From NCBI RefSeq assembly GCF_018977255.1, contig NW_024704742.1, positions 117,430,001-117,494,000 on the forward strand: a stretch of DNA of 64,000 nt. Direction: 5' to 3'. The notes under the pieces are model-generated. The model made no database searches, was not told the DNA's origin, and was given only the letters and a program-made list of their open reading frames with translations. Shown one piece after another: positions 1,078-45,914 of this stretch. Position numbers and translations under genes: made by a program. Origin of the DNA: Callorhinchus milii. Lineage: Eukaryota. How positions within the stretch are numbered: position 1 is the stretch's first letter; every line of letters starts with the position of its first letter.

Positions 1078-2258
1078 ATGACAACTCGATCTTTAATGGT
1101 ACAATCAGGAGTTTTGCTGGAACCAAATGTGGATCTTCTGCTTGTAACAATTCTCAGCACAGAAGGCAAAATTCCGGCTCAGAATACAGACTTAACGAAA
1201 GTCTGTATATAAAGTCTGTAAAGTTTGAAGATGCCGAGAAGGCAATTCATGTGAACATTTCGAAGATAGCAGGACAATACCTAACCGGACCGTGGATGAC
1301 CATATTTATTCCTTCTGTTTATACAGCTGTTATTGCAATGAGTTTGCCTCTCAACTGCTTAGCAATCTTACTGTTCCTGTTTAAACTGAAATTGAAAACG
1401 CCGTCCATAATCTTCATGGTGAATTTGGCTATTGCAGATTTACTATTTGTGCTGTTGCTTCCCCTAAAAATCTCCTACCATTTCTCTGGCAATGACTGGG
1501 GATTTGGTTCTTTCACGTGCCGAATGGTTACTGGTGGATTTTATGCTTACATGTACTGCTCTGTGCTGCTGATGATGTGCATAAGTGTTGATCGATTTTT
1601 TGCTGTGGTTTATCCAATACGCTCAGTCTCATGGCGTAGCCCTAAACGTGCTAGTGTACTTTGCATTGTCATGTGGGTTCTGGCTATCACTGGTGCGTTA
1701 CCCCTTTTCCTTTCTGAACAAATGGTGTATATCAGCAAACTGAACATTACAACCTGCCATGATGTGCTACCTCTCTCTACGCTACAAAACCACTCACTGT
1801 ACTACTTTCCCATCTTGTGTACGCTGTTCTTTGTACTTCCCCTCATTGTGACCTCAATCTGCTACATATCCATTATCCTTACTCTTTCCTCTTCAAGTCT
1901 GTCGACCAAATGCAAAAAAACTCGTGCCATCAGTTTGGCTGTGCTTGTGCTTTTTGTGTTTATTGTCTGTTTTGCACCAACTAATATTCTTCTACTTATA
2001 CACTACTTGCATTTTTATCACAGTGCAAGTGACTCGATCTATTTTGCTTATCTCCTGTGCCTGTGCATCGGGAGTGTGAGCTCTTGCATTGACCCTCTGA
2101 TTTATTATTACGCCTCATCTTTGTGCCAAAAGCATTTGCAGAATCTGCAGTGCTGTGGGCAAGCAACTGAATCTGGGAGTAGTCGGATGGAATGTTTGAA
2201 TGATAAATTGGGAACCACATCTCCCATTGGTGACATCCACAAACAATTATTAACGTGA
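1078..2258 (+). CDS. F2R: Proteinase-activated receptor 1-like paralogue A, coding exon 2 (exon 1/signal peptide lies upstream of the window)
   Basis: 7TM class A GPCR with PAR1-type motifs: ISVDRFFAVVYP, NITTCHDVL (ECL2), CIDPLIYYYASS, C-terminal ..KQLLT. Acceptor ttcatttttcag| at 1077/1078, phase 1 as in other PAR genes. Candidate cleavage site NGTIR/SFAGTK. Confidence 0.85.
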
Positions 2259-3068
2259 ACCCCTCACATGGTGTTACACATATAGTATTTATTAGTTAAA
2301 GTTACTTTACATAGCAATTTTGCTTTATTCTATATTGCAATCCTTGCTCCTTGAGTAGGTATGTGTATGAATCCAGTGTAGATGTTGTCAGAGACTGAAA
2401 CTTGGTCAAAATGATGTTGTTCTTGTGGGGGCACTTCTCAGGCTTTCACCCATTTCAGTTTGGTTCTGGATAAAGCACATTCCGGATCATTGTTCAGCGT
2501 TAATGCTTTCATAAGCACTTGAACATTTCGATCCCATGCATGGCATAACAACTAGCTTCTTGCAGACATAACATGATGGCATATTTGTCAAGTCATAGAA
2601 GAAACTGCTCCTCAGGCTCTTAGTTTTTGTTTAGATTAAATTATGTAGAACATTAAGCCACAGAAACAGGACACTGCCCCAACTAGTTTGGGTTATTGTG
2701 TAATCGACTTGAGTCTCCTTTACCATTCCTAATCCTGTCTCCCACACCTCTTTATTCTATTAAATATCAAAATTCAACTTAGTACATATACGAATTAAGT
2801 CAGCAATAATGCATTCACTGAAAATGCAGAACTTTTCTGCCTTTATTTGCCAGAAGGATTGCAAATGATCGAACAAATTTATATATTGTACTTTTATAAT
2901 CAACAAAAATTCCATGGGGAAGGAATCTCCTCACTGTGATTTGGAATGGATTTCATTAGTGAATGCACTTACCTATTGGAAAGTTTTGTATAAGACAACC
3001 TTTTGAGCACCTCATTCAAAGAAACATGGAAAACCAGAATGGACAAACATTTCAGATGGGCAGTATTT

Positions 3069-3391
3069 GGAGTCTTGTAGCTCATTGGTTAGAGCACTCG
3101 CTTTGCAAGTGAGAGACTTGGGTTCAATCCCAGCCAGAGGGCGAAACCTTGGGCAAGTTTCCTTACTCCACACAGAGCCTAGTAATAATCCCTCCAAAAC
3201 CCAAAACAATAATAAATTGGTCATCTTCAATCTACGACTGTTTGTGGGACATTTCTGTGCGCAATTGGCTGCCGCGTTCACCCACAAATATACAGTCAAT
3301 TCACTTTACAGTATATTCTGTGAAGCGCTTTGGGACCTCCTCCCGACGTGAAAAGCGCTATATCAAATGCAAGGATTATTATTATTATTAT
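3069..3391 (+). mobile_element. Young tRNA-derived SINE (short form), (TTA)n tail
   Basis: A/B-box head (tagctcattgg...ggttcaatcc); near-identical to many other copies in the window. Confidence 0.9.
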
Positions 3392-3832
3392 TGTGTTACA
3401 ACAACAAAATTACATTTGTAAAGCGCTTTTCACGTCAGGAGAACATCCCGAGGCTCTGAAATAATATATTATATTATTGTCCACAGTACTTTGAGTCAAC
3501 ACACAACCAAGAAGCATAGAAGCATAACTGTAAGAGGAGTGCAAACCAAAATGCCACATTACAGGAACCAGAAAACCTGAAGACTTTCAAATTATATTTA
3601 CTGTTGCACCAAACTGTTGAGTGGTTTAAAAAAGGAAAATGATGTTGAAATCTTTCAAATGAATGAAATGTACTATTTCAGGTTTGCAATGAAGAAAGAT
3701 TTACTTGTTGAGTTCTATTACAAGTTTTCAGAACAAGAATGAAACTGGATATCATGATGATGATGCTTGTTGTTCACATTCTTTATCGCTATTTTTACCA
3801 TTTTGTATCTAATATTTAAATATATTTTTTCA

Positions 3833-3838
3833 AATAAA
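3833..3838 (+). terminator. Candidate polyadenylation signal of PAR1-A
   Basis: AATAAA at the end of an AT-rich 3'UTR-like stretch; use not demonstrable from sequence. Confidence 0.35.
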
Positions 3839-3954
3839 TTGAACGAAATGAAAAAGTAAAAACTTTGCAAATGTTTACTGCTACTTCAGCAATCTTATCA
3901 TGTAAATATGTATCACAAACCTATTCATAGATTGAGCATATGACTTTCTGTGTA

Positions 3955-4350
3955 GAGGATGGCTCAGTTGATAGCAATCTCATCTCAGAGACAGAAGATT
4001 GTAAATTTTAAGACTCACCGCAGGACTTTGAGCTTATTGTCTGGAAGGTGCTGCCTTATGCTAATAAGATGTTAAAAATTGAGCTGCCCATCTGCCAGTT
4101 CAGTTGAATGTTAAATATCCCATGGTACTGTTCAGAAATAAAGAGGGGTCTCTCTTGGTATTCTGGCCAACGACCTCAGATAGAATTTTTCATTTATTTC
4201 ATGGCTGTTTATGGGATATTTTTGTCTGCAAATTGTTTGGCATGTTCGCCTATAAAATATAGTCCCTACACTTTATAGGCGATGGTGTGAACCTCTTTGA
4301 CACATCCTCCCAGTGTGAAAGGCACCATATTAAATGCAAGGATTATTATT
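3955..4350 (+). mobile_element. Old DeuSINE/SacSINE1-like relic
   Basis: ggctcagttgatagc head, atcccatggtactgttc core, L2-type tail. Confidence 0.55.
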
Positions 4351-5034
4351 TTTTATTTTATTTATCTCCAGAGACCCATTCTCAGCACATTGATGATTCC
4401 AATCAGATATTAAATGCACTCTGTTTGGCAGCGGCTAACCTATCTCCTGTTGAAATTTCCCTGTCTTAAAAAGGTTATTTAAGAATGTACAATATGCAAG
4501 TTTGCTTCCAGTTGAAGTATGTGCGTCAGGCAGATAAAATATTTAATAAGTGGCCTGAAAGTCTCAAATGGGAGAAGTACTGTATTAATATTGTGTAAGC
4601 CTATCCACTCTAACAATAATAATGCAAATCTTTACAGCACAAACTAGTTTTATTTGAATTCTATCTCGGCAAGACAAAGTGTTGACTTCTAGTTCAGAAC
4701 AAAAGAGCTACTGATTCATTTCCACAAGTCCAGTGTCATTTGTTGAAGTAAAGTTAGATTATATTGTTGTTTTGTTTTATGTGCAGTCCACTGGGTCCCA
4801 TCTCCTGACAGATCCATTGATCCATTACCTCCATTGCCAAGCCCCACCATACCACTCCCACCTTCTGTGACTGTACAGGCCCAGATCCTCCCTCTGCACA
4901 GCTATCACTAACCACTTTCATCTCCCTTCCTGTATGCCTCGCCACTGATGGGCAAGTTTTCTGCTATGCTGCCCCCTTGCTGTGGAACTCAATCCCTGTG
5001 TCCCTCCTTCTTGCCCCTCCCTCTCCACCTTCAA

Positions 5035-6500
5035 AACAACAACAAAAGCAACAAACAACAAAATTACATTTGTACAGCACCTTTCACATCAGGAGGACGT
5101 CCCAAGTCGTTGGACAGACAAAGTTATGGACCCGAGCTGGGGTCGGTGTGGGTGAGGGTGGAGGGCAGGGGGGGAAACAGGGAGCTCGAAAGCACGGTCG
5201 AAGAGGAGGGTCTTGAGATGGGTCTTGAAGGTGGCAAGGGAGGGGATGAGGTTGAGGGACTGCGAGATGGAGTTCCAGAGGGTGAGGGCAGAGTGGCAGA
5301 AGGTCCGCTCACCAACAGTGGGGCGAGCGAGGCAGGGGACGTGAAGCAGGCCGGAACCCGCTGAGTGGAGGGAGCGAGCAGGATGGGGTAGGGGGTTAGG
5401 AGGTCCCGGAGGTAGGGGGGAGCAAGACCATGGAGGGCTTTGAAGGTGAGGACCAGGATTTTGAACTGTATCCTCTGTGTGATGGGAAGTCAGAGGAGTT
5501 GGGTAAGGATGGGGGTGATAGAGTCACGGAGCCTGGTGCGGGAGAGGACACAGGCTGCAGAGTTCTGGATGATCTCCAGTCTATGGAGGGAGGAGTTGTA
5601 GATACCGAAAAGCAATGAGTTTGCATAGTCGAGCCTCGATGTAATGAAAGCATATATAAGGGTTTCGGTGGCCTGCGGTGTGAGACAGTGGCGGAGGTGG
5701 GCGATGTTGCGGAGGTGGATAAAGGTAGAGTGGGTCATGGTGGAGATGTGGGGTAGAAAGGATAGTTGAGGGTCAAACAAGACCCCAAGGTTCCGGACTG
5801 GTTTAGCAAGGTACAGTGTGCAACCGTGGATGGTGATGCTGTCAGTGCCTGAGGTGAGGAGGCGCTGAGGGGAGCCAATCAAGAGGGCCTCGGTCTTGTT
5901 GACGTCCAACTGAAGAAAGTTAGCTCTCATCCAGGACTTGATGTTTGACAGACATTCTGTCACGACAGCAGTAGTCCTGAAATCAAGGGTGGAGGCAGAG
6001 AGGTGGAGTTGGGTGTCATCCACATATATGTGGAAGTTGACCCCATATCTGCGGATGATGTCACCAAGAGGGAGCATATAGATATTGAAGAGGAGGGGAC
6101 CAAGGACAGAGCCCTGAGGAACACCACACAAGACGATGTGGGGGCTAGAGGAGAAACCATTTGTGGAGATGAAGTGGAAGCGTTGTGAGAGATACAATCT
6201 GAAACAGTGAAGGACAGAGCTGTGAAGGTTGAAGTGAGAGGAGAGTCAGTGGAATGAGGATAGAGTGGTCGACGGTGTCGAAAGCAGCAGAGAGGTCAAG
6301 GAGGACGAGGAGGCAGAGGGAGCCCTGGTCGCAGATGGACAGAATGTCATTTGTCACTTTGACCAAAGCTGTTTCTGTGCTGTGGGCGACACGGAAACCC
6401 AATTGGAGGGGTTCGAGAAGGGAATGGCGGGACAGGAAGGAACGAAGCTGAGAAGCAACAACTCATTCTAGGACCTTGGAGAGGAAAGGGAGGTTGGACA
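5035..6500 (-). mobile_element. L2-clade LINE, 5'-truncated and decayed
   Basis: RT motifs ([33 protein letters not shown]); (TTG)n tail at 5035. Confidence 0.9.
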
Positions 6501-9230
6501 CCTGCCTTAAGATCTATTTATTCTATGTACTATTGGCCTGCTTCCCCCACCCCCTCCCACAAGCTTCTCCTCCCTCAGCTCCATCTTCACTCAGCCGGGG
6601 GTGTGGGGGTGGGGGATCTTTTAAGCCATGACTGAAGACCTTCCTCTTCGACTGTCACCTCTACGGTCACCTCCTTCATCCCCCTGGCTCGGTGTCAGAC
6701 TCTGCCATTGTTAAGTGCGCCGAGATGCTGTCCCATGTGCAGAGCGCTATATAAATGCAAGTTGTTGTTGTGTCAGACTCCCTGACAGCTGTGTGAATTG
6801 CTTTGACACATCCTACAATAACTGTGCTATGTGAAGGTAAATTGCTGTTTTGACTATCTTCAAAATAAAGATTTGCTATAAAGCCACATTTAGGGTGCAT
6901 TGATGAACAGTGATGCTATCAATGCCTGAGGTGCGGAGGTACTGACGGGAGCCAAACCAGAGGGCCTCTGTTTTGTCAACTTGGTTCACACAAACCGAAA
7001 AATTTCCTTTGCCACAATAAATAAGTAAAGTGAAGTATGAGTTTTTACTCAGAATAAGCAAAATATTGTTGTTTTCTACAGTTCCACATGGAAAAGCTGA
7101 CATCATTTACTTTTCTTCTCACATATCATTCTCTGGTGGAACTAACCTAGCCGGTTTCCTGAAATAACTGAAAACAATTGTACACTACCCGAACACAATT
7201 TACATGTATATAGCGCCTATTTTATCAGGAAGCCACCTGAAAGTGCTTCACAGTTGTGGTGGCAGGAGTGGGGGTGGGTTGATAAGCAAATCTTCTTAGA
7301 GCTGAACTAGTAACCAGGTGAGGTGCTTACTACTGGAATATCGGAATTGAGGCAATCCTCTGCAGTGGCCTCAGATAGACCAGTTCCTCAGCCAGGGCAG
7401 ATCCATAGTACGCCTAGACACGACTGATGTCAAACAAGCAACCTGATTCATCAGCAGGACTTGGGAAATCCAGACTGGCACTGGGGGCAAGGAACCTTGC
7501 ACGTCACTCAGTTGGGGGTGTGGGAGGTTGGGGGGGCTGGGTCTTTTAAGCCATGACTGAAGACCTTCCTCTTCGACCGTCACCTCTACGGTCACCTCCT
7601 CCCTCCTCCCTCCTATACAAATGTAATTTTGTTGTTGTTGTTATGGGTATGGTAGTTCTCGCTGGATAAGAAGCGGGTGCTTGCCAGCCAGTGCTCTCAA
7701 TGGCAAATTATATGGTTTTAGTTGATAGAAACTCTTGGTTCTTACTAAGCTGGGCCCAATAATTTGTGGAATTAGGCCACTCCCTGCAACTCTCAGGGAG
7801 TGGCCATTCCATTTCAGATATGTGTACATGGTATGCATTTGTGAAACTTCTTATGTTTGGTCTCAATACCAAGATTTTATCTGAATATACAATAACAAGA
7901 ACTGCGATTGCTTCACGTCAGTCTGTGAAGAGATTGGAATCTTTTTATTCCTGGGGAAGGGGGAAGGGGGAAACATCCTAGATTTCTCTTTGATTGACTT
8001 TTGTTTTTGGTCAGCCGGGCGTCTGACGCAGGCGGAAACCCATCACCATGCTTAAGAGGAATTGATTGATTCAAAGCAGAGTATTACTGATTGACTCGCT
8101 GTGCATTCCCAGCATTTTCTGTTTCAATTTCCAATTCAGGCTGCAAGAAAAGGATTGGGAATGCGGATAAACGGTAGCCTGTTTTTTTTAAATTACAGCC
8201 TCCGATGGGACATTAAAGCTCTGCCTTTCGTTTTATAAAAAAAAAGGCAGAATTTTTTGCCCGTTTGCCTATGCTATGCTGCATTCTTTTTAATAAAACA
8301 ACGTGAGTAAAATTGCTGAAGACCGATCCGAACAAATCAACTTTCAAACTTGGTGGAGAGCAAAACACAAAAGTCATACTATCAGCAAACAGTTGAGGTT
8401 TGTTAAGCTGCGAGGAGGTGATATTTTGGAAATGGCCATATAAAGACCGGGATCGGTGGGGTTAACTATAGATTAGCAAATTAATGCATTCGGGGGTCTT
8501 TTAAATGGCAATGCAATACTGCAACGCTAAGGAGAGGGCAGCAAAAGGGTGGGCAGCGAGTGACTCAGTTCCCTGTGAGTGTATTCTCTACACGTTCCAC
8601 ATGTTCTGTGAGAAGAGGGAGGATCTTGAATGTAATTCTTATCGCATCAGATTAGACCTTTCCCCCCCATCCCTCCTGCAAAGTTCCTGGCAGTCAATCC
8701 CAATAACGCACTCGTGATAATCATAATTACTATTATTATTATTATTATTATTATCATCATCATCGTTGCAACACACTGGAAAATGCGCCCTTGAAAGTTG
8801 CCACATTGCACCGAACTCCGCGCAACGGCTTTGCTGCGAGTTGTTACCCCCGAAGCGACGAAGATTTCTTTCCCGTTTCTCGCCGCTGCGCCACTCCCAA
8901 AAGGGAAATAGGTTTGGAATCGTTTCACGGGGATCGCATCTTTTACACCTTTGGTACCGGCGATCTCACCCCCAAAAAATATCGCCTCCGCTCTGCAGTC
9001 TATGCTCGTGTTTGCAAAGGCGGTTGTGGCACAGCAGTGGTCTCCGGAGGGGGACGACGAGGGCACTTGGGGAGTAATTGCACGAACTTGGGATCCGGTT
9101 TGTGCACAAGTGTCTCTCTTTGCTTCAAACGCTTCCCGGAATCGATGGGTTCGTTATCTGATCACCGGAGCTGAGAGTCGCCACGTTTGGATCGGATCAG
9201 AAGAACGTCACTCAGGAATGCGGAGCCGAG

Positions 9231-9272
9231 AGTGAGAGAGTGAGACAGACAGAGAGAGAGAGAGAGAGAGAG
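9231..9272. repeat. (GA)n microsatellite
   Basis: Seen directly. Confidence 0.9.
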
Positions 9273-9340
9273 TGAAGTCCGGACTGATCTGCTCCGAGGG
9301 CAGAGCGTGTGAGCATCGCCACAAACTGAGCCCCAGCATC

Positions 9341-9393
9341 GCAGCAGCAGCAGCAGCAGCAGTAGCAGTAGCAGCAGCAGCAGTAGCAGTAGC
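9341..9393. repeat. Compound (GCA)/(GTA) trinucleotide repeat in PAR1-B 5' region
   Basis: Seen directly. Confidence 0.9.
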
Positions 9394-9514
9394 CATCGTC
9401 TGCGCGGCCACTTGGCGTCGATTGCCCCGGAGTTCGCCGGTGGAAGAGACTGATTCGGGATCGCAGTTCGGAGCAGCACAAAGCCCTGTGGCTTTCTCAT
9501 TCCCCCCCGACAGT

Positions 9515-9581
9515 ATGGGTGGGGGAGTGGGGCTTGTGCTCTGCATCGCGCTGCTCCGCGCTGTGTCGGCTCGAAATCCTG
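9515..9581 (+). CDS. F2R: PAR1-like paralogue B, coding exon 1 (signal peptide MGGGVGLVLCIALLRAVSARNP-G)
   Basis: ATG at 9515 in the CpG island, hydrophobic signal peptide, donor CTG|gtaaga, phase 1 matching the exon 2 acceptor. Confidence 0.8.
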
Positions 9582-9691
9582 GTAAGAGCACTGCTGCCTT
9601 TACACAAGGATTACACCCCAATCACTTGCCAACAATTATTTGCTGTGCGGGGGGGGGGGGGGGACACACAATGTTTTGCCCCCCAAAAAGG

Positions 9692-9935
9692 ATAATAATA
9701 ATAATAATAATCCTTGCATTTGATATAGCGCTTTTCACGGGAACACACTGTAAAGTGAATTGACTGTATATTTGTGGGCGAACGCGGCAGCCAATTGCGC
9801 ACAGCAATGTCCCACAAACAGTCGTAGATTGAAAATGACCAATTTATTATTGTTTTCGTTTTTTGGAGGGATTATTATTAGGTGTGTGGAGTAAGGAAAC
9901 TTGCCCAAGGTTTCACACTGCCTGGAATTGAACTC
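9692..9935 (-). mobile_element. Young SINE, 5'-truncated, PAR1-B intron
   Basis: Reverse complement of the SINE consensus. Confidence 0.85.
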
Positions 9936-12654
9936 GATTTTAACGGCGTAGTCCCGAAATAAACAGGGAATACGAACAGTGGAATAAGGTTGGGAGTCCG
10001 GAGAGTGGAGGCATTGGGCAGACTTTGGTTTTCTGATTTGATTCAACACATTTATTTATCTGTTCCATGAATGGATCATTTTTTTTNGGTGGGGGAGATC
10101 ATTTGTTGGGCTAAGTGAGTGTGTGCGTGAAACTTTCGCCATGAATGGTTTCCATGGTTTGTTTAACTGTTGGATCCTCAATTGTCCCTAAACAAAAGTA
10201 CAGGGTTTAAGAGCAGAGTTTGAGGAGGGATCTGCAGCGTTGCTTCTTTCAAACAGAGATTTGATAGTTTTCTTTCAGGAAATAACATTATGGGATGTAG
10301 TTTGGGAGATATGTGAAAGGCAAACTAGATGGATCTTGGTGACTTTTCGTCTAGCATTTCTCATGTTGTTATGTTCTCTCACAGACAAGTGCTGGCAATC
10401 TGGTCCATTTCTCATGATTGTTATTTATGCACGGATCAGGATTAACCACTGATTTATAATAATATAATAATCTTTGCATTTTTATATAGCCCCTTATCAC
10501 ATCGTTGAGACATCAAAATATAAAGTCAATTCACTTTACAGTACATTCTGTGAAGCGCTTTGAGATGTCTCGACGACGTGATAAGTGCTATATCAAATAC
10601 AAGGATTATTATTATTCAGTTTTGATCCAAGGTTGGAAGGTAAAAACAAATCTAAACCTTTGAAACAAAACCAAAATTACTAGAAATTTGTACCAAGACA
10701 ATCAGGATATGATAGAGAAACACAGATTAACGTTTCTTCAATCTATATTGGAACATTTAAATGATACAGGGGTTTTCTCTTACTTTTAAAATCCTATCTC
10801 CTTTCTGACCAAGTGCTCTGCCCCTTTCACTTGTTTTCAGAGTTTGAATGCTGAATGCGTCACTGAGCCCATGGAATTCACAAAGAAAATATAAACAGTT
10901 GCCTGTTTCTGCAAAGAATCAGTAATTCACTACTGACAGCAAGTTTAAAAAAACATTGGACTGTCAAGTTTTTGGGGAAACTACAAGAGGCTGTTTAGTG
11001 TTTCCTCTGAAAAACTCATGGCTTTGGTGATAACTCTTCATTTTTGACACTAGGATAGAAGAAATAAGCATTGCATCTGATAATGTGTTTTATCAGGTGG
11101 TTGTGACATTTGAAAGTGGTTCGCAAGATTTTACTGTAAAGTGATTAACTGTGCATTTGTAGGCAAACACACCAGTCAATTTGTGCACAGCAGTGTCCTA
11201 CAAACAGCCACAAAGTAAATGACCAATTTTATTTGGGGGGATTATTTGGCCATGGTACCTCATTTAAGGCAGCAAACAATCTGACAGTATATAAGAAGTT
11301 ATAAATATTTTACATAACTTGTACAACAATCTAGAACAACATTATTGAGGTTTAACTCTTTCTGTACTTTATCTTGATGGATTTATACTCAGAGGAAAGC
11401 AAGAAAATGCACAGAATGGTTTGAAATGTGAAAAATCTTAAGGATGATTTCCAGGAGGAAACATATTAGGCTGCTGAAGCACAGCTTCTCCTAAAATACA
11501 ACAGCTAACCCCTGTAAATTAGTAGTGTTTACTACTCTCCTGCCTGTGTTTACGTCATTGGAGCCTTAAATGAGGAAGGCAATGAAGTGGATTAATCAAC
11601 GAGTAAACAATCTGACTCACTCTAGTAATTACAGGATTGCGCTCAAGGGTGAAAACGTGGATGTCTGCAGTGCAAACTCTGTGCCTTGAGGCATCCACCT
11701 GACTTGAAAGGTGCTACACAAATATAACTCGTTGTTGTTGCTGTTGCTGCATAATCTCAGAGCAAAATAAGTTGAACAATCAAATAATGTTTTATTTCTT
11801 TATTATTATCATTGACTGGTATTGCCTTAATAAGTCTTGCCTAAAAGTAATTTGTTATGTGTATATAAAATATATTTTTTAAAAATTAAAATGCATTTAA
11901 AATTACGTTTAGAATATATGATTTGGAAAAGTGATATTTTCTCCTCAATAATCACATAGAGAAATAGGAACTACTTTTGCAATTAGTTGTATTCAGTCAT
12001 AAATAGTGATTTAAAACAGATCTTTATTTTCCAGTCACAGACTTATCATCTTATTGTGTATGATGAAAAAATAATAAAATCAATATTTGTATATTCTGAC
12101 TTTACTTCGTACAGAGTAATCCTGACCTCTAGTCACCTTGTTGATATATAAACAGCCCCGGAACACTGGGGCTGCAGCATAAGGCTTTTCCTTCTCAGGA
12201 CAATTCAGCTGCAATTCAGCTACAAATATATATTGATGCAAGAGATTTAACTCCAAATTTACCTCAAGCAATCCTGTGGATAAAATCATTCACTTCATAG
12301 CTGTTTGTGGGACAAAGCTGTGAGCAAGTTGGCTGATACGTTTACTTGTAAAATACACAGTCACTACACTTCACAAAGCAGTGAAGCACTTTGACAGGTT
12401 TCAATGATGTTACAAAGTGGTATAACAAATGGTAGGTAACAGAAGCATCTGGGCAAATCCTGTGGGTAAAAATTCCATTTAGTATTACGTACCATGCAAC
12501 AGATTGGAACCATTATTTACAGCAGTTTCATTAACCCAAGAAAGTGTATAAACATCCTATGTGTAACATTGTCATTTATCATTGTCTCCCCAAACTGGAA
12601 AACTGTACAATATTTTTATTATTGAATCATCAGATGAGGATTTTTGTTTCTCAG

Positions 12655-13859
12655 GTAACTCATCAAAGGCAGTAGCCCCTCCTAGAAGCTTTGGAGGTAT
12701 TATTCAACTCTCTGAATATATTGATCTTGCACTTATCGAAGGTGAAGATTCAGGTCAGTTCAGCGGAAGTGGATCGAAAGATGCTCCTGGAATTGATTCT
12801 GATGAAAATAAAGTCATGGATTCTGTCAAAGACTCGAAGAAACCCAATCTACATTATGTGGCTATTTCGAAGATAACAGGACAATATCTAACCGGGCCAT
12901 GGATGACCATATTTATTCCTTCAATTTATACAGCTGTTATTGCAATGAGTTTGCCTCTCAATTGCTTAGCAATCTTACTGTTCCTGTTTAAACTGAAATT
13001 GAAAACCCCGTCCGTAATCTTCATGGTGAATTTGGCTATTGCAGATTTACTATTTGTGCTGTTGCTTCCCCTAAAAATCTCCTACCATTTCTCTGGCAAT
13101 GACTGGGGATTTGGTTCTTTCACGTGCCGAATGGTTACTGGTGGATTTTATGCTTACATGTACTGCTCTGTGCTGCTGATGATGTGCATAAGTGTTGATC
13201 GATTTTTTGCTGTGGTTTATCCAATACGCTCAGTCTCATGGCGTAGCCCTAAACGTGCTAGTGTACTTTGCATTGTCATGTGGGTTCTGGCTATCACTGG
13301 TGCGTTACCCCTTTTCCTTTCTGAACAAATGGTGTATATCAGCAAACTGAACATTACAACCTGCCATGATGTGCTACCTCTCTCTACGCTACAAAACCAC
13401 TCACTGTACTACTTTCCCATCTTGTGTACGCTGTTCTTTGTACTTCCCCTCATTGTGACCTCAATCTGCTACATATCCATTATCCTTACTCTTTCCTCTT
13501 CAAGTCTGTCGACCAAATGCAAAAAAACTCGTGCCATCGGTTTGGCTGTGATTGTGCTTTTTGTGTTTATTGTCTGTTTTGCACCAACTAATATTCTTCT
13601 ACTTATACACTACTTGCACTTTTATCACAGTGCAAGTGACTCAATGTATTTTGCTTATCTCCTGTGCCTGTGCATCGGGAGTGTGAGCTCTTGCATTGAC
13701 CCTCTGATTTATTATTACGCCTCATCTTTGTGCCAAAAGCATTTGCAGAGTCTGCAGTGCTGTGGGCAAGCAACTGAATCTGGGAGTAGTCAGACAGAAT
13801 GCAAGAACAGTAAAACAGGGAGCTCCACTGATACTGTCTCCCAGAAATTACTTATCTAA
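12655..13859 (+). CDS. F2R: PAR1-like paralogue B, coding exon 2 (spliced product about 423 aa)
   Basis: Acceptor tttttgtttctcag| at 12654/12655. Cleavage site APPR/SFGGII followed by an acidic stretch. Same PAR1 7TM motifs as copy A. Lies directly upstream of F2RL1, as F2R does in other vertebrates. Confidence 0.88.
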
Positions 13860-17744: not shown

Positions 17745-18061
17745 GGTCCTGTAGCTCAGTGGTCAGAGCACTCGCTTTGCAAGCGAGAGACCTGAGTTCA
17801 ATTCCAGGCAGGTCAGAGCGAAACCTTGGGCAAGTTTCCTTACTCCACACGCCTAATAATAAAACCCTCCAAAACCAAAAACAATAATGAATTGGTCATT
17901 TTCAATCTACGACTGTTTGTGGGACATTGCTGTGCGCAATTGGCTGCCGCGTTCGCCCACAAATATACAGTCAATTCACTTTACAGTGTGTTCTGTAAAG
18001 CGCTTTGGGACGTCCTCCCGACGTGAAAAGCGCTATACCAAATGCAAGGATTATTATTATT
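17745..18061 (+). mobile_element. Young SINE inserted in the Penelope element; TSD ATGGGT(GG)
   Basis: SINE consensus; atgggtgg at 17739-17746 and 18062-18069. Confidence 0.9.
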
Positions 18062-18164
18062 ATGGGTGGAGAGGTCAGAGTGCGAGAGGGAGAGTTGAAG
18101 GGGCAAGAAACCGGAAGCTCAGGGTTGTGCTGGTGGACAAAAGCCTCGCCCTCCCAACATGCCC

Positions 18165-21165: not shown

Positions 21166-21468
21166 ATAATAATAATAATAATCCTTGCATTTGATATAGC
21201 GCTTTTCACGTCGGGAGGATGTCCCAAAGCGCTTCACAGAACACACTGTAAAGTGAATTGACTGTATATTTGTGGGCAAACGCGGCAGCCAATTGCGCAC
21301 AGCAATGTCCCACAAACAGTCGTAGATTGAATATGACCAATTAATTAGTGTTTTTGGTTTTGGAGGGATTATTATTAGGCTCTGTGTGGAGTAAGGAAAC
21401 TTGCCCAAGGTTTCGCCCTGACCTGGAAATGAACTCAGGTCTCTCACTTGCAAAGCGAGTGCTCTAAC
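21166..21468 (-). mobile_element. Young SINE, TSD aacata
   Basis: SINE consensus; aacata on both sides. Confidence 0.88.
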
Positions 21469-24082: not shown

Positions 24083-24405
24083 TAATAATAATAATAATCC
24101 TTGCATTTGATATAGCACTTTTCACGTCGGGAGGACGTCCCAAAGCGCTTCACAGAATGTACTGTAAAGTGAATTGACTGTATATTTGTGGGCGAACGCG
24201 GCAGCCAATTGCACACAGCAATGTCCCACAAACAGTCATAGATTGAAAATGACCAATTTATTATTGTTTTGTTTTGGAGGGATTATTATTAGGCTCTGTG
24301 TGGAGTAAGGAAACTTGCCCAAGGTTTCGCCCTGACCTGCCTGGAATTGAATTCGGGTCTCTCGCTTACAAAGCGAGTGCTCTAATCACCGAGCTACAAG
24401 ACTCC
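24083..24405 (-). mobile_element. Young SINE, full length, upstream of PAR2 promoter
   Basis: Reverse complement of the SINE consensus. Confidence 0.9.
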
Positions 24406-24699
24406 ACTTGACACCAGATTAAGTAGGTAGTATTTAGTATCATCGTCTAGTAAAATGTAGGGGCCTCAAACCGAGCCTTTGCTTTGGGCCCCTGAAAGGC
24501 AAACGCCGGCCTGACTACACTTGAAGCACTCGGCGACGTCCTCCTGACATGAACGGCGCTATATCAAATGCAAGAGTTATTAAATAGTTTCGCAGTCCAA
24601 TGTTTACCCCATTAGCCTCATTGCTCGCATGTGACTTGTTCTTGCTTCCTGCTGAGAGAAATGCAGCTCCCTCCAGTGCACCCTCCAGGGACCTGAGTG

Positions 24700-26856: not shown

Positions 26857-27935
26857 CTGGTCGAAGCTTTGCTGGCGAAACTGTTGATAATAGCTCTGAC
26901 TTGAAGGTTGACGACTTTGCTAAGGACGTACTCACCGGTGGATTGACTACAGTCTTCTTGCCGTTGGTCTACATTATTGTGTTTATCATTGGTTTGCCCA
27001 CAAACTCAATAGCATTGTGGGTCTTTGGCTACCGAACCAAAAAGAAACATCCGGCAACTATCTACATGGCCAATTTGGCATTGGCAGATCTTTTGTTTAT
27101 CTTTTGGTTCCCTTTGAAGATTGCATATCATGTGAATGGCAATAATTGGATTTTTGGAGAAGGCTTATGCAGAGTGCTTGTGTCTTTCTACTATGGGAAC
27201 ATGTACTGCTCAATTCTCTTCATGACCTCCCTTAGTGTGCAAAGGTACTGGGTCATTGTAGATCCAATATCTCAATCTAAGAAAAAGACTACAATTGCTT
27301 ATGCTGTTTCCATTTCTATTTGGATACTAATTGTATTGGGTACTATGCCATTGTATCTAACTACTCAAACTGCATACATCACTAACCTTGATATAACCAC
27401 CTGCCATGATGTCCTACCTGAATTGAAATTGTCTTCCACTATGTTTGATTACTTTACATCTTTGGCTATTGGTCTGTTCTTTTTTCCTGCAGTTTTGACC
27501 GTGATTGTATATGTACTCATGATCATGACACTGAAAGCTTCTTGTACTGAAGCGAACATTGGGAAAAGCCGTAGACGAGCAATTGAATTGATAATTACTG
27601 TTCTTATAATGTATTTAGTTTGCTTTACACCCAGCAATATAGTGCTTGTAGTTCACTATTATATGATAAAATTCTATGGCGTCAGCAATGTTTATGCTTT
27701 CTACATTGTGGCTCTTTGCCTCTCTAGCATCAACAGTTGCATTGATCCCTTTGTCTATTATTTTGTATCTAAAGACTTCAGAGACCATGTTAAAAATACA
27801 ATGATGTGTCGTAGTGTGAGGGCAGCAGAAAGGATAAGAGCTTCATTCACATCCATGAAAAATTCCAAAAAGTCTAATATTTACAGATCTACAAGAACTA
27901 CTAGTTCCACTGCTACGAGTAACACAAATTATTGA
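26857..27935 (+). CDS. F2RL1: Proteinase-activated receptor 2, coding exon 2 (spliced product about 379 aa)
   Basis: Pyrimidine tract + caccag| acceptor; GR/SFAGET cleavage site; PAR2-diagnostic SVQRYWVIV, LTTVFLP, TTCHDVLPE, CIDPFVYYFVSKDFRDHVKN; Ser/Thr-rich tail. Confidence 0.92.
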
Positions 27936-32381: not shown

Positions 32382-32600
32382 CTTCATAAAATATAATACA
32401 GTAAACCCCCATCCCTGGTATCCAGAATCTACACTTAGTTGGGCTAAAATGTCTGCAACTAAATTTTGGATTTGGGCAACGCAGCCACAGAATGTTTTTC
32501 CTGTCCACCGGATTTTTTTCGTGCATATCATAAACGCGGTGCTGGTAAATGCTGGTATCGGCATTGTAATTATACTTAGCCGGCTCACAGGATCGGATCT

Positions 32601-34191
32601 GGAGTCCTGTAGCTCAGTGGTTAGAGCACTTGCCTTGCAAGCGAGACACCTGAGTTCAATTCCAGGCAGGGCGAAACCTTGGGCAAGTTTCTGTACTCCA
32701 CACAGAGCCTAATAATAATCCCTCCAAAACAAAACAATAATAAATTAATCATTTTCAATCCACGACTGTTTGTGGGACGCTGCTGTGCGCAATTGGCTGC
32801 CGCTTCTCTCCCACAAATAAACAGTCAATTCACTTTAGAGTATATTCTGTGAAGCGCTTTGAGACGTCTAGAAGACTTGAAAAGTGCTATATCAAATGCA
32901 AGGATTATTATATTGTGTCTCTCCCCTACTCCACTTAGTCTGGCATCCCAGGGTTTATCTGTAATATATAGAATCATAGAAATTACAGCACAGTTGGAGG
33001 CCATTTGTCCTTGTATTTTAAGATCCTCAACTTTATCTTAAAATGCTTTCTCTTCCTCTCCAATATCACAAAATATAATCACTCCGCTTTACAATATATC
33101 CTGTGAAGCGCTTTGAGATGTTTTGAAGCCGTGATAAGCCTCTATATCAAATGCAAGGATTTTTATTATCCCCCAATGTCCACTCTTCACCCCCATGCCA
33201 CATTCGATCACGAAGTCCTGTAGCTCAGTGGTTAGAGCACTCGCTTTGCAAGCGAGAGACCTGAGTTCAATTCCAGGCAGGGCAAAACCTTGGGCAAGTT
33301 TCCTTACTTCACACGTCTAATAATAATCCCTCCAAAACAAAAAACAATAATAAATTGGTCATTTTCAATCCACGACTTTGTGGGACACTGCCGTGTGCAA
33401 TTGGCTGCCGCGTTTCGTCCACAAATATACAGTCAATTCACTTTACAGTGTGTTTTGTGAAACGCTTTGGGACGTCCTCCCGACGTGAAAAGCGCTATAT
33501 CAAATGCAAGGGTTATTATTATTATAAAACATAGTCACTACATTGAACAGTATATTCTGTGAAACACGTTGAAACGTCATCCTGACATGAAAGGCGTATT
33601 AAGGATTATTATTATCCCCTTTATTATTATTATCCCCTTCCCTCCACCTTCCTCCATTTGTTTCAATGTTATGCTTAGAACATATGGGAACTTTCCTCCC
33701 TGTCACTATTTGCCTGCTATGACAGATGCCTGGTGCCATCTACTGGTTTCTTTTCCATTGCACTAAGTATAAGCTTAGTTTTTAATGGACAAAGGGTATG
33801 AGATTATTTGATGCAATTAATTTTAACCTGGAGTACAAGTTAATTTTTTTAATTGCAGTTTTGGAGTCCTGTAGCTCAGTGGTTAGAGCACTCGCTTTGC
33901 AAGTGAGAGACCTGAGTTCAATTCCAGGCAGAGGGCGAAACCTTGGGCAAGTTTCCTTACTCCACACAGAGCCTAATAATAATCCCTCCAAAACAAAAAA
34001 AACAATAATAAATTGGTCATTTTCAATCTACGACTGTTTGTGGGGCATTGCTGTGCGCAATTGGCTGCCGCGTTCGCCCACAAATATACAGTCAATTCAC
34101 TTTACAGTGTGTTCTGTGAAGCGCTTTGGGACGTCCTCCCGACGTGAAAAGCGCTATATCAAATGCAAGGATTATTATTATTATTATTATT
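32601..34191 (+). mobile_element. Cluster of three SINE copies (32601-32910, 33212-33524, 33863-34191) plus orphan tails
   Basis: SINE consensus repeated in the same orientation. Confidence 0.9.
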
Positions 34192-34563
34192 TTAACATTG
34201 TAACAAACACATTTGGTATGGAGAAAATAATATCCACATCCAAATGAAATTGAATCCTATCCCCTCCTACAGGCCACTATTCTTGGCCAGAATTTCCTTT
34301 TTTTAAGTCTATTTATATTGGGGAGCTTTCTACTACTTAGATGACGGACTGTAGGTGTAGTGCAATTTAGTAGGGGTTGTTGACTTGTGCCTGTTTAAGT
34401 CACTGGTAACTGTTTAACTCTAGGATTTGGAGGGTTTGTATTTGAGCCCAAATTCTGGTGCTGAGGTTTGTTACCTTCTGGACGGGTAGATTAAGGTTCT
34501 TTTTGGGTGAACCATGAGGATGGAAAGCAAAATTGTTTTCCTTAAGGCTGTTTGTGGACTTAC

Positions 34564-35839: not shown

Positions 35840-37722
35840 GAGAAGAGCAGCGGAGAAGTGAAAAGGGAAATAAGAAGGGCGAAGAGATTGTATGAGAAAA
35901 AAGTAGAGGAAACATAAAAGGTAACCCTAAGGTATTTTATAAGCATATCAAGAATAAAAGGTTAGTCAAACGTAGGGTGGGTCCAATTAGGGACCCAAGT
36001 GGAAATCTTCTTGTTGAGGCTGAGGGCATGGCTGATGTACTAAATAAGTACTTTGCAACTGTCTTCACAAAAGATGCAACCAATGCCACAATATCGCAGG
36101 AATGTGAACAGAAATTGGATGTGATAAAAATCAACAGAGAGGAGGTACTAAAAAGGCTGTCGGTGCTCAACATAGATAAGTCACCTGGTCCGGACGGGAT
36201 GCATCCTAGGTTACTGAGGGAGGCAAGGGTGGAAATAGTGGAGGCTCTGACCACATTCTTTCAATCCTCTTTGGACAATGGAGCGGTGCCAGAGGACTGG
36301 AAGGTTGCAAGTGTTACTCCCCTGTACAAAAAGGGGCAGAAGGATAAACTACAGGCTAATCAGCCTAACATCAGTAGTAGGGAAAATTCTGGAGACTATA
36401 ATCCAAACAATATAAATTCTCACTTAGAAAAATATGGTTTAATAAAGGACAGTCAACACGGATTAGTTAAAGGCAGATCGTGTCTCACAAACTTAATACA
36501 TTTTTTGATGAAGTGACTGAGAGTGGATGAAGGTAGTGCAGTAGATGTAGTTTATCTAGATTTTCAAAAGGCATTTGATAAAGTGCCACATAAGAGACTT
36601 ATAAACAAAGTAGAAGCCCACGATATTAAAGGAACTGTGGCAACATGGATCCAGAACAGGCAAGGAGACAAAAAGCAAAGAGTGATAGTAAACAGTTGCT
36701 TTTCTGACTAGAGGGGATATGTAGTGGTGTCCCTCAGGGCTCGGTATTGGGACTACTGCTCTTTCTGATCTATATTAATGATCTGGACCTGGATGTAGGG
36801 AAAACAATTTCCAAATTTGCAGACGATACTAAGCTAGGAAAAGTACTTATTGATGAGGAGGATAACACCAGACTCCAAGAGGACTTAGACAGATTGGTAA
36901 AATGGGCAGAAAAGTGGCAGATGAGGTGTAATATGGAGAAATGCGAAGTGTTGCATTTTGGTAGGAAGAATGAGGAGAGACAGTATAAGCGAGATGGTAC
37001 AATCTTAAAGGGGGCAAATGAACAGAGAGACCTGGGGGTCTACATAAGAAATCTCTAAAGGTGGCAGAACAGGTAGATAAAGCTGTTAAAAAAGCATACG
37101 GGATACTAGGTTTTATAAACGGGCATAGAATTCAAAAGTTAGGAGGTTATGTTGAATATTTATAAAATGCTGGTTAGGCCTCAGTTGGAGTACTGGTTCA
37201 ATTCTGGGCACCGCACTTTTGGAAAAATGTTAGGGCATTGGAGAGGGTGTAAAGGAGGTTTACCGGGATGGTACCAGGAATGAAGGACCTTAGTTATGAG
37301 GAGAGGTTAGCGAAACTAGGATTATTCTCCTTGGAGCAGAGAAGATTAAGAGGGGATTTAATAGAGGTTTCCAAGATCATGAGAGGATTTGATAGGTTGA
37401 ACCGGGAAAAACTGTTTCCACTGGCATGTGGGTCAGTAACCCGAGGACACCGATTTAAGATAGTTGTTAAAAGAAACAGAGGAGAGGTTAGGAATTTTTT
37501 TTTCACCCAGCGAGTTGTTCGGATCTGGAATGCATTACCTGAAAGGGTAGTGGAAGCCGATTCAATAACAACTTTTAAGAGAGCAGTAGATGGGTATTTG
37601 GGGAGGACTGGATTGCAGAGCTATGGAGAGAAAGTGGGCCAGTGGGATTGAGTTGGATTGCTCTTTTAGGAGCCGATGCAGACACAATCGGCCGAATGGC
37701 CTCTTTCTGTGCTGTATGATTC
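35840..37722 (+). mobile_element. CR1 LINE, 5'-truncated, frameshifted
   Basis: KSPGPDGMHPRLL, YLDFQKAFDKVPH, KFADDTKL, QRVVRIWNALP; CR1 3' end ..tgctgtatgattcta. Confidence 0.92.
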
Positions 37723-43619: not shown

Positions 43620-44612
43620 TGAGGCGACAAATTGCCCCTCATTGAGGCCACACCACCCGGCTATACCTGGGCTATCATGGCCACCCACTCGAGCTGGTGA
43701 CTACCCAGGACCTCAATGTCTTGGATATCACAATCACAGACAAAGCCATCTCTGATCACCATTTCATCTCCTTTAACTCCTCAATCCCTCTCCCCACCGT
43801 GACCAATCCCACCTCCATCTCCTATCGCTCCTGAAAAAATATCTCCCCACAATCCCTCTCCAGTGCCCTGGAGTTATCTGAACTCCTCCCCTTCTGGTCT
43901 ATCTCCCGTACTGATTTATCCTTTTCGCTCACTCTCCTCCACAACTCCCTCTCCACCACTCTTGATGCCCTTGCCCTCCTCATCTCCCGAACTGCCTCCT
44001 ACTCACGAACCTCACCCTGATACACCAGCCACCTCCTCTCCCTCAAGGGTCAGGTGCGGGCCCCCGAACGCACCTAACTCAAATCTGACCGAATGGTCCA
44101 CCGACAGATCTTACTGGACCACATCAAAACGGACTGCTCCACCCTCTCCTCTGCCAAATCATCCTTCTGCTCCAAGATAATCTTGGAGGCGAAGGTCAAC
44201 CCCACGCTCCTATTCTCCACCACCAACCAGCTCCTCCGTCCACGCTCTCACACCTCACCCATTCTCTCCTCAAACTCTGACAGTGAGGAGATGCTGGATT
44301 TCTTCGAGTCCAAAATTGAGGGGATCCATTCAGCTGCCTCCGCCCTCTCAACCACCACTCCCTTCCCATCCCTCCCTCCACATTTTCGAACCTGTCTCTC
44401 CCTCCTCTCTCATCACCACCATATGCAGCATAAAACACACCACCTGATCCCTTGACCCTATCCCCTCCCTTCTGCTTACCTCCCAGCTCCACCTCCTCAC
44501 CCCTCTATTCTTCAACATCGTCAATCTCTCCATTTCATCCAGCACAGTTCCCATCCCCCTAAAAACAGCTACAAACACCCCCATCCTGAAAAAATCTTCC
44601 CTGGACCCATTC
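43620..44612 (+). mobile_element. L2 fragment (end of the endonuclease and linker region)
   Basis: SDHH-like APE end and PILKKSSLDP motif; homologous to 49700-50550. Confidence 0.7.
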
Positions 44613-44614
44613 CT

Positions 44615-45890: not shown

Positions 45891-45914
45891 CCACAAGGAA
45901 CGTATTGTTTATAT

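What the first reader, a model, noticed from the sequence alone, without database searches (positions are those of the whole stretch)
1257..13791. Two PAR1 paralogues with a homogenised 7TM core but old, divergent ends (probable gene conversion)
Seen: 1257-2184 aligns ungapped to 12864-13791 (offset 11607) with 15 substitutions by my count (8 synonymous, 7 non-synonymous). The stretch 1408-1931 vs 13015-13538 (524 nt) is identical, silent sites included. Just outside the block the C-tails are only weakly alignable (RMECLNDKLG..HKQLLT vs QTECKNSKTG..SQKLLI), and I see no similarity in the ectodomains, introns or 3'UTRs. Inference: an old duplication plus recent or recurrent interlocus conversion limited to the transmembrane part, with differences clustering at the tract edges.
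Basis: partly seen in the sequence, partly recalled or inferred. Interest (0 to 1): 0.75.

Follow-up and report, generated by a model that had tools for sequence, protein, structure and literature searches.

The report
Thrombin-receptor twins kept alike by conversion
An elephant shark carries two old neighbouring copies of the thrombin-receptor gene PAR1 that keep copying their membrane-spanning part onto each other while their protease-sensing ends stay different; sharks do this over a shorter stretch and rays have largely stopped, so the pair shows duplicated genes at three stages of escaping each other.

Summary
Observation exact: 15 substitutions (8 silent) over 928 nt, 524 nt identical, flanks barely or not alignable. 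The window encodes two Callorhinchus milii PAR1 paralogues, A and B, then PAR2. An assembly artefact is unlikely: contigs from other samples bridge both edges of copy A, and A is spliced. A second species has both sets of ends but one collapsed core with the same boundaries, differing from the window at 72 sites, so homogenisation continued after that split. Sharks and rays carry A and B too. In 10 of 10 sharks TM2-TM5 is 153-159 of 161 residues identical between paralogues, while TM1, ICL3 and helix 8 stay orthologous; in 4 of 4 batoids it is 96-121 of 161. Best reading: an old tandem duplication with recurrent interlocus gene conversion: whole receptor domain in chimaeras, two shorter tracts in sharks, ceased in batoids. 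B keeps an acidic ectodomain, A lost it. Same kind of process as CCR2/CCR5; not found in print for PAR1 in 10 searches. Selection on the shark ICL3 island (K6.29G) is inferred, not shown.

The parts
1078..2258 (+). PAR1 copy A, coding part of exon 2 (exon 1 lies upstream of the window); equals XP_007903567.1 from exon 2 on
   Evidence: AG acceptor at 1076-1077; best solved-structure match PAR1, E 2e-112; a contig of run X6 joins exon-1 letters to this exon
1107..1127 (+). Copy A predicted cleavage site R|S and tethered ligand (SFAGTK); ectodomain poor in acidic residues (2 in P1'-P35')
   Evidence: sequence; cleavage inferred from PAR family knowledge, not tested
1257..2184 (+). Converted tract in copy A (human PAR1 about I88-S397: juxtamembrane segment, TM1-TM7, helix 8)
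1408..1931 (+). 524-nt identical core in copy A; coincides with the TM2-TM5 tract that sharks also convert (1410-1892 in these coordinates)
2185..2258 (+). A-specific C-tail, orthologous to elasmobranch A tails
9515..9581 (+). PAR1 copy B, coding part of exon 1 (signal peptide), in a CpG-rich kilobase
   Evidence: tblastn of P0124; GT donor at 9582 and CpG o/e 0.84 in 9001-10000
12655..13859 (+). PAR1 copy B, coding part of exon 2; equals XP_007903569.1 / V9KF74 from exon 2 on
   Evidence: best solved-structure match PAR1, E 5e-110
12684..12704 (+). Copy B predicted cleavage site PR|S and tethered ligand (SFGGII), followed by an acidic stretch (6 acidic in P1'-P35')
   Evidence: sequence; cleavage inferred, not tested
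12864..13791 (+). Converted tract in copy B
13015..13538 (+). 524-nt identical core in copy B
13792..13859 (+). B-specific C-tail, closer to elasmobranch B tails
26857..27935 (+). PAR2 (F2RL1) exon 2, same strand, not part of the exchange (about 38-40% protein identity to A and B)
   Evidence: best solved-structure match PAR2, E 2e-151

Best explanation
PAR1 was duplicated in tandem in an early cartilaginous fish. The ends diverged: copy B kept the ancestral acidic ectodomain, copy A lost it. The large second exon, 11.6 kb apart in the same orientation, stayed alike enough to pair, and interlocus (non-allelic) gene conversion has overwritten one copy with the other again and again, independently in each lineage. 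In C. milii the whole folded receptor domain is still exchanged, most often TM2-TM5. Sharks exchange TM2-TM5 and, more weakly, late TM6-TM7, while TM1/ICL1, ICL3 and helix 8 have escaped; batoids have escaped almost entirely. Shown: identity pattern, both copies real, lineage-specific homogenisation, segment-wise tree conflict. Inferred: that the exchange is DNA-templated conversion, that C. milii A is the orthologue of elasmobranch A (about 85%), the order of tract shrinkage, and the functional reading: in C. milii two receptors with nearly the same signalling body but different protease-sensing ends and tails (B thrombin-type, A lower thrombin affinity or another protease; about 55%).
For: (4 of 24 listed runs laid): run X19, a different organism, has A-type intron/ectodomain and 3' flanks (depth 26-27), a B-type tail as loose end (28 of 30 letters as in window 13802-13831, read by eye), and one 937-nt core contig at depth 47 on 1250-2184 with 72 other letters. 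If A and B had not exchanged since that split about 71 differences would be expected between them; 15 are seen (Poisson 6e-16; 0 in 524 nt, 3e-18, equal rates assumed). TM2-TM5 identity between paralogues 161/161 in C. milii, 153-159/161 in 10 of 10 sharks; for 7 of these 10 (one per lineage) mean paralogue distance 0.02 vs orthologue 0.14 (A) and 0.13 (B); shark A copies as one clade in TM2-TM5 rejected, p-AU 2e-77; in TM1/ICL1+ICL3+helix 8 the 17 elasmobranch A and 17 B copies form two clades (100/100, 100/95); quartet sites over 21 shark pairs 349 conversion-type vs 2 orthology-type in bins q152-301, but 0 vs 225 in q92-136 and 11 vs 93 in q302-331 (summed by hand); C. milii against each of 11 elasmobranchs 21-60 vs 0-1. 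Ends: C. milii A scores 14.3 bits on the elasmobranch-A ectodomain profile (0 of 1000 shuffles reach it) and 2.4 on B; B scores 57.4 on B and 3.1 on A; termini tree puts C. milii A with elasmobranch A at 99/97 and 99/98 under the mixture model.
Against: Orthology of C. milii A rests on short, fast-evolving ends: long end branch (1.4-1.9), best identity 31% over 67 columns, and a C. milii A+B clade is rejected only at p-AU 0.022 and 0.038; trees of the 7TM place the C. milii pair outside all elasmobranch copies, as expected from conversion but also from an independent duplication. B copies do not form one clade in the termini trees. Three of 10 sharks (the bamboo sharks) do not pair by species in TM2-TM5. 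No contig spans a whole tract, and contig assembly can merge similar copies, so the collapse in X19 bounds but does not measure its A-B distance; core depth in X2 (12) is not twice the flank (9) whereas X3 gives 27 vs 6-10. Elasmobranch evidence is protein only: no silent sites, and tandem arrangement there is inferred from shared longest-contig lengths and near-consecutive accessions. No elevated GC3 to speak of (tract 0.45, A ectodomain 0.39, PAR2 0.39). Direction of conversion could not be polarised.
Confidence: 0.85

Rival explanations
1. Conversion is real, but chimaeras and elasmobranchs duplicated PAR1 independently and the A-type ends are convergent or an artefact of long branches; the C. 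milii pair is then younger than the chimaera-shark split.
For: At 19 columns that separate elasmobranch A from B inside the tract, C. milii holds the outgroup state at 15, the B state with mixed outgroups at 1, another residue at 3, and never a clearly derived A or B state. 7TM trees put the C. milii pair outside elasmobranch A+B (85/82; 91/97). Lungfish, gar, bonefish and a frog have PAR1 duplicates of their own, so the gene duplicates readily.
Against: Reciprocal profile scores and two termini trees group C. milii A with elasmobranch A; A-tail profile 10.1 bits for A (1 of 1000 shuffles) vs -1.0 for B; the identical core coincides with the shark tract. The ancestral states are also what whole-domain conversion up to the split would leave.
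Confidence: 0.1
2. Assembly artefact: the core of one copy was collapsed or patched into the other.
For: No laid contig spans a whole tract; the central core comes as one contig per run.
Against: X2 and X3 contigs cover 900-1347 with 0 other letters, i.e. intron, A ectodomain and 91 nt of tract with six A-specific alleles; an X2 contig covers 1945-2597 with 1 other letter, outside the tract; X6 has a spliced A 5' end running into the tract and separate B ends, with depths 185 + 63 against 277 in the core; no second full-length core of 80% identity or more was laid (6 pieces not shown). Ten shark assemblies show the same pattern with species-specific residues.
Confidence: 0.02
3. Strong purifying selection on the receptor body, or a simple recent duplication, without exchange.
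For: pN/pS in the tract is 0.29 (7/694 vs 8/233 sites), so purifying selection does act.
Against: Silent sites are nearly identical too (pS 0.034); the same region differs at 72 sites from a second species and at 26-41% of residues from elasmobranchs; introns and UTRs show no similarity above shuffles.
Confidence: 0.03

Closest known systems
CCR2/CCR5 concerted evolution in mammals (PMC8877049, parts 1-2 of 3 read; cites Vazquez-Salat 2007 and others)
   Same: Tandem class A GPCR paralogues, conversion tracts inside the receptor body, independent events in many lineages, N-terminus spared, heterodimer and neutral explanations both open.
   Different: Here the pair is PAR1/PAR1, the tract covers the whole folded domain at 98% nucleotide identity in one lineage, boundaries recur in a second species, and three lineages show full, partial and no exchange. 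If the duplication predates the chimaera-shark split it is several times older (about 400 My, recalled).
Long-lasting two-gene concerted evolution: BMP8A/B, DDX19A/B, TUBG1/2; also Oxct2a/b, EMR2/CD97, TLR1/TLR6 (PMC2720389, part 1 of 7 read)
   Same: Exactly two functional paralogues, mosaic homogenisation of a segment, paralogues closer than orthologues.
   Different: Those tracts include introns and were dated to over 100 My; this tract lies within one exon, and no intron similarity is left.
Peak of divergence under conversion: human red/green opsin exon 5, RHD/RHCE (PMC3924837, passages read; Teshima and Innan 2008 cited there, not read)
   Same: Shark ICL3/start of TM6 is an orthologous island between two converted tracts, with no indel in the alignment, and holds a fixed change at a functional residue.
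   Different: No silent-site or population data here, and no function measured, so selection is inferred only.
Human PAR1 (F2R) (PDB 9d4z, 8xor; PMC11443083 and PMC4026716, passages read)
   Same: Best structural-sequence match of both copies; two coding exons; R|S-F tethered-ligand start; pocket residues S89, Y95, Y161, C175, C254, H255, D256, V257, L258, H336, Y337, Y350, Y353 are kept in both copies; gene lies upstream of PAR2.
   Different: Two copies; K135(2.37) is Thr in both C. milii copies, E347 is Asp; copy A lacks the acidic stretch that in human PAR1 binds thrombin exosite I.

Membership tests
PAR1 (F2R) subfamily | Rhodopsin-family 7TM whose closest characterised relative is PAR1, not PAR2/4 | tested here: met
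   Pfam 7tm_1 189 bits for both; PAR1 E 2e-112 / 5e-110 vs PAR2 5e-72 / 8e-72; no PAR3 chain appeared in these lists
PAR1 (F2R) subfamily | Basic residue followed by a tethered ligand starting S/T-F | tested here: met
   A GTIR|SFAGTK, B APPR|SFGGII; K/R|[ST]F in all 30 elasmobranch copies with an ectodomain
PAR1 (F2R) subfamily | Tethered-ligand pocket and activation residues of PMC11443083 | tested here: met
   Identical in A and B at 31 of 32 positions listed (F87 position differs, one residue outside the tract); departures from human include K135T, E347D, S306C
PAR1 (F2R) subfamily | Acidic segment after the ligand that binds thrombin exosite I | tested here: inconclusive
   Acidic residues in P1'-P35': B copies 4-10 (C. 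milii B 6), A copies 0-5 (C. milii A 2), five bony-vertebrate PAR1 8-10. Met by composition for B, not for A; binding not tested
PAR1 (F2R) subfamily | Activation by thrombin cleavage | not testable with these tools
   needs an assay
Concerted evolution by interlocus gene conversion | Paralogues closer within species than orthologues between species | tested here: met
Concerted evolution by interlocus gene conversion | Homogeneity includes silent sites | tested here: met
   C. milii pS 0.034, 524 nt identical; not testable for elasmobranchs (protein only)
Concerted evolution by interlocus gene conversion | Mosaic: flanking segments keep orthologous history | tested here: met
   for C. milii A with a long-branch caveat
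Concerted evolution by interlocus gene conversion | Shared polymorphism between copies in the population (ongoing exchange) | tested here: inconclusive
   Collapsed contigs carry mixtures of A and B alleles that differ between runs, but contigs cannot phase them
Concerted evolution by interlocus gene conversion | Raised GC3 from biased conversion | tested here: inconclusive
   0.45 in tract vs 0.39 in A ectodomain and PAR2; small difference, few codons, no test made
Selection-maintained divergence peak (Teshima-Innan type) | Divergent island flanked on both sides by converted sequence, without an indel barrier | tested here: met
   Sharks: q302-331 11 conversion-type vs 93 orthology-type sites, flanked by 349 vs 2 and 29 vs 4; no A/B indel there
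Selection-maintained divergence peak (Teshima-Innan type) | Island exceeds neutral expectation and holds a functional difference | not testable with these tools
   needs elasmobranch DNA, simulation and signalling assays; K307(6.29) to Gly in 17 of 17 A copies, Lys in 17 of 17 B copies is a candidate

The most novel reading that the evidence does not exclude
One PAR1 gene pair has been exchanging sequence since before chimaeras and sharks split (about 400 My, date recalled), and living lineages preserve three stages of escape: whole-domain exchange (chimaeras), exchange punctured by selected islands at the G-protein-facing ICL1, ICL3 and helix 8, including a fixed K6.29G in copy A (sharks), and full release (rays and skates). 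Copy A is then an undescribed chondrichthyan PAR subtype: a non-thrombin or low-affinity sensor that signals like B in chimaeras but with altered coupling in elasmobranchs.
Probability: 0.4. Interest if true: 0.72.

Novelty: new member of a known kind. Interest (0 to 1): 0.55.

Why it matters
Theory predicts how duplicates under conversion break free (local divergence islands held by selection, then loss of pairing), but two-gene cases that show several stages side by side are few. This pair offers one exon, about 30 sequenced copies and three regimes, so the prediction can be tested with public genomes. It also shows that PAR1 trees built on the 7TM give false 'species-specific duplications' in cartilaginous fish, that short-read assemblies collapse the core, and that cartilaginous fish have a second PAR1 whose protease-sensing end has lost the acidic thrombin-docking character, a natural chimera series for dissecting protease recognition from G-protein coupling.

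Tried and rejected
No whole genome is held for this window, so exon 1 of copy A, upstream genes and the third decayed copy could not be located; tblastn and blastn found no third PAR1 copy inside the window. My early reading that B was the donor was dropped: all 12 B-like states with a clear outgroup are ancestral, as are the 3 A-like ones. A search with the A ectodomain alone (residues 20-100) returned only itself among 4 candidates: too fast-evolving for word search, no evidence either way. PAR1 duplicates of lungfish (3), gar (2), bonefish (2) and a frog (2) show 105-130 of 161 identity in TM2-TM5 and group within their lineages: no comparable homogenisation and no sign that the A/B split is older than cartilaginous fish, though the gar pair (40 of 52 in TM1) was not pursued. 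No listed run is on record as RNA; X6 is RNA by guess, and the spliced junction is the only expression evidence. Motif scans (patterns recalled) for S100Z/CRHBP-like exons and for PAR2 exon 1 found nothing. The GC3 figure printed for the B ectodomain was out of frame and is not used. Rfam gave only tRNA hits. Earlier findings of the scan: three look-ups, nothing shown. No structure or complex prediction was run: solved PAR1 structures answer the mapping. Literature: searches returned 0 papers; others returned 2, 25 (24 listed), 7 (5 listed) and 5, none by title or abstract start on PAR duplicates or conversion in cartilaginous fish; some were for comparison cases. The one PAR-evolution paper found (PMC4771116; part 1 of 4 and passages) has 0 occurrences of 'shark' and of 'conversion'. 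Subscription journals are mostly outside the library, and no supplements were read.
Full report
1. Observation. At offset 11607 the stretch 1257-2184 differs from 12864-13791 at exactly 15 positions, none in 1408-1931; identity falls to background within 50 nt on either side; self-BLAST gives 946 nt at 97.8% without gaps. Eight changes are silent and seven are not; pS 0.034, pN 0.010. The gap of 524 identical bases is not expected from 15 evenly spread changes (7e-5 of 200,000 simulations). Against 200 shuffles the C-tails are weakly alike (z 4.2), the exon-2 ectodomains barely (z 2.5), 3'UTR and intron not (z 1.1, 0.8).

2. What the genes are. The two ORFs equal, from exon 2 on, two named Callorhinchus milii proteins, XP_007903567.1 (copy A) and XP_007903569.1 (copy B). 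Both match PAR1 best among solved structures; the third receptor at 26857-27935 is PAR2. B's first coding exon is at 9515-9581 in a CpG-rich kilobase; A's lies upstream of the window. Through the alignment the tract corresponds to human I88 to about S397, close to the 82-397 range modelled in the cryo-EM structure (PMC11443083, passages): the whole folded receptor, not only the helices. Segment names (TM1, ICL3, helix 8) are my assignment from that alignment, the paper's residue labels and recalled topology.

3. Is it an artefact? I laid 4 of the 24 listed runs (3 studies) on 900-2600; all are contigs. In X2 and X3 a contig covers 900-1347 with no other letter, joining A's intron and ectodomain to 91 nt of tract with six A-specific alleles. 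In X2 another covers 1945-2597 with one other letter (at 2201, outside the tract). X6 (RNA by guess) has a contig whose loose end reads as A's exon 1 spliced to exon 2, separate B-type 5' and 3' ends, and depths of 185 (A end) and 63 (B end) against 277 in the shared core. Against: no piece spans a whole tract, depth is not a copy number (X2 core 12 vs flank 9; X3 27 vs 6-10), 107 difference rows and 6 pieces were not shown.

4. Is it recurrent? Run X19 is a different organism (coded; about 92% identical in the core, presumably another chimaera, an inference). It has A-type pieces on 960-1125, 1229-1279, 2161-2300 and 2395-2497 at depth 26-27, a B-type tail, and a single 937-nt contig on 1250-2184 at depth 47 with 72 other letters. 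So both genes predate the split of the two species, their cores are too alike to assemble apart in that species, the boundaries are the same, and yet C. milii A and B differ at only 15 sites where about 71 would be expected without later exchange (Poisson 6e-16, equal rates assumed). Caveat: assemblers merge bubbles, so X19 bounds rather than measures its A-B distance.

5. Relatives. Of 383 hits at E<=1e-100 the best 120 were listed; with cluster members I kept 36 chondrichthyan sequences (15 species with both copies, 6 with one retrieved, which is no evidence of loss) and 8 bony-vertebrate PAR1. Identity between a species' two copies: TM2-TM5 161/161 in C. milii, 153-159/161 in 10 of 10 sharks, 96-121/161 in 4 of 4 batoids; pre-TM1/TM1/ICL1 48/52 in C. 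milii but 20-30/52 in sharks; ICL3/TM6 start 17/19 vs 7-12/19; helix 8 22/23 vs 7-11 of 19-20. For 7 sharks, one per lineage, TM2-TM5 paralogue distance is 0.02 against 0.14 and 0.13 for orthologues. The TM2-TM5 tree pairs A with B by species in Pristiophorus, Heterodontus, Heptranchias and Cetorhinus (starred), both Scyliorhinus species (unstarred) and Rhincodon (with Stegostoma A); the three bamboo sharks do not pair by species; batoid A and B form separate groups. Shark A monophyly there is rejected (p-AU 2e-77, 26 rows). In TM1/ICL1+ICL3+helix 8 the 17 elasmobranch A and 17 B copies form two clades, with the C. milii pair outside. Four-sequence site counts (summed by hand, species pairs not independent) show two shark tracts, human about 132-296 and 327-372, around an orthologous island at about 297-326; batoids give 14 conversion-type against 232 orthology-type sites. 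Twelve of the 15 C. milii differences fall in the 280 of 928 nt that sharks no longer convert (binomial 1e-4); part of this is an edge effect expected of any tract.

6. Age. Profiles built from elasmobranch ends assign C. milii A to A and B to B for both ectodomain (14.3 vs 2.4; 57.4 vs 3.1 bits) and tail (10.1 vs 1.2; 6.5 vs -1.0); shuffles reaching the matching scores: 0, 0, 1 and 10 of 1000. Termini trees (39 of 44 rows, five A rows with truncated ends left out; 26 rows with a mixture model) place C. milii A with elasmobranch A at 99/97 and 99/98; holding the C. milii pair together is rejected at p-AU 0.022 and 0.038. The branch is long and B is not resolved as a clade, so I put orthology at about 85%. 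The chimaera-elasmobranch split at roughly 400 My is recalled, not looked up. Inside the tract C. milii holds ancestral residues at 15 of 19 diagnostic columns and no clearly derived A or B state: the donor cannot be named, and the simplest history is whole-domain exchange in the common ancestor, retained in chimaeras and shrunk in elasmobranchs.

7. How it works. Shown: mosaic identity, both copies real, repeated homogenisation. Inferred from established genetics (PMC3924837, passages; PMC2720389, part 1 of 7): close, same-strand paralogues with some hundred bases of high identity pair and convert; introns, UTRs and the fast-evolving ectodomain lost homology early and so bound the tract; purifying selection on the receptor body keeps it alike enough for conversion to go on. 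An mRNA template cannot be excluded because the tract lies in one exon. Function (inferred): pocket and activation residues named in PMC11443083 are the same in A and B, so C. milii has two near-identical receptor bodies. The ends differ: acidic residues in the 35 after the cleavage site are 4-10 in 17 elasmobranch B copies and 6 in C. milii B, against 0-5 in 13 elasmobranch A copies and 2 in C. milii A. In human PAR1 an acidic stretch there binds thrombin exosite I and raises affinity (PMC4026716, passage). I therefore expect B to be the thrombin-type receptor and A to respond more weakly to thrombin or to another protease (about 55%); P2 proline is no guide, since salamander and tortoise PAR1 lack it too. 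In elasmobranchs the escaped segments face the G protein (ICL1, ICL3, helix 8 per PMC11443083), and K307(6.29) of the K-R-K motif, whose mutation hampers signalling, is Gly in 17 of 17 A and Lys in 17 of 17 B copies. An island between two converted tracts without an indel is the pattern described for selection under conversion, but neutral decay of pairing is not excluded (selection about 50-55%). ICL2, also a coupling surface, is converted in sharks, which tells against a simple 'all coupling surfaces escape' rule.

8. Comparison and novelty. The process is known: CCR2/CCR5 (PMC8877049, parts 1-2 of 3), BMP8A/B and others, opsins and RH. The PAR1 pair, its conversion and the three-regime pattern were not found in the searches; the PAR-evolution paper found does not mention sharks or conversion. 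Most subscription papers and all supplements were unseen. Interest 0.55.

Noticed in passing
laid on window 1223-1335 and 1751-1802 (runs X2, X3); 1945-2281 (run X19): A third, decayed A-like PAR1 copy: a 292-nt contig with 16 other letters that skips 415 nt of the core in both DNA runs, and in organism B a contig with 40 other letters and 27 gaps. Not in the window; probably a pseudogene elsewhere in the cluster.
   Followed up: partly
window 9515-9581 and exon 1 of relatives: The signal-peptide exon also looks lineage-homogenised: 124 conversion-type vs 15 orthology-type sites over 55 non-independent species pairs (summed by hand); Pristiophorus A and B are 22/22 identical. Shared-exon gene models could inflate this: a Chiloscyllium 'isoform X2' joins an A-like exon 1 to B exon 2, hinting at read-through splicing.
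   Followed up: partly
window 1410-1412 region and its copy in B (human K135): K135(2.37) of the K-R-K motif is Thr in both C. milii copies, Lys in all elasmobranch B and in shark A except Stegostoma, Asn in most batoid A: a non-conservative change spread to both copies.
   Followed up: no
batoid proteins, ECL3 (query 332-361): The few conversion-type sites left in batoids cluster at ECL3 (9 of 14), perhaps a last small tract.
   Followed up: no
proteins P0177, P0114, P0108 (Protopterus): Three 'isoforms' of lungfish PAR1 share exon 1 but have three different second exons (105-127 of 161 identical in TM2-TM5): either merged paralogues or alternative receptor exons behind one signal exon.
   Followed up: partly
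window 2201: All four laid runs read C where the window has T (third codon position, in A's C-tail): rare allele or error in the window.
   Followed up: no
window 3060-3398, 17746-18063, 21166-21468, 24083-24406, 32600-32911, 33214-33525, 33862-34203, 45914-46260, 46508-46819: A family of about 320-nt repeats, 83-96% alike, most with a tRNA-like head (called tRNA-Ala at five places): tRNA-derived SINEs. None lies inside either tract.
   Followed up: no
window 63818-63889: tRNA-Glu(CTC), 63 bits in Rfam, not among the top self-BLAST repeats; probably a genuine tRNA gene.
   Followed up: no
window 5054-6498, 35848-37493, 43754-44617, 48585-50550, 53144-54919, 56267-61038: Fragments of LINE reverse-transcriptase ORFs, 71-84% alike among themselves; family names not tested.
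   Followed up: no
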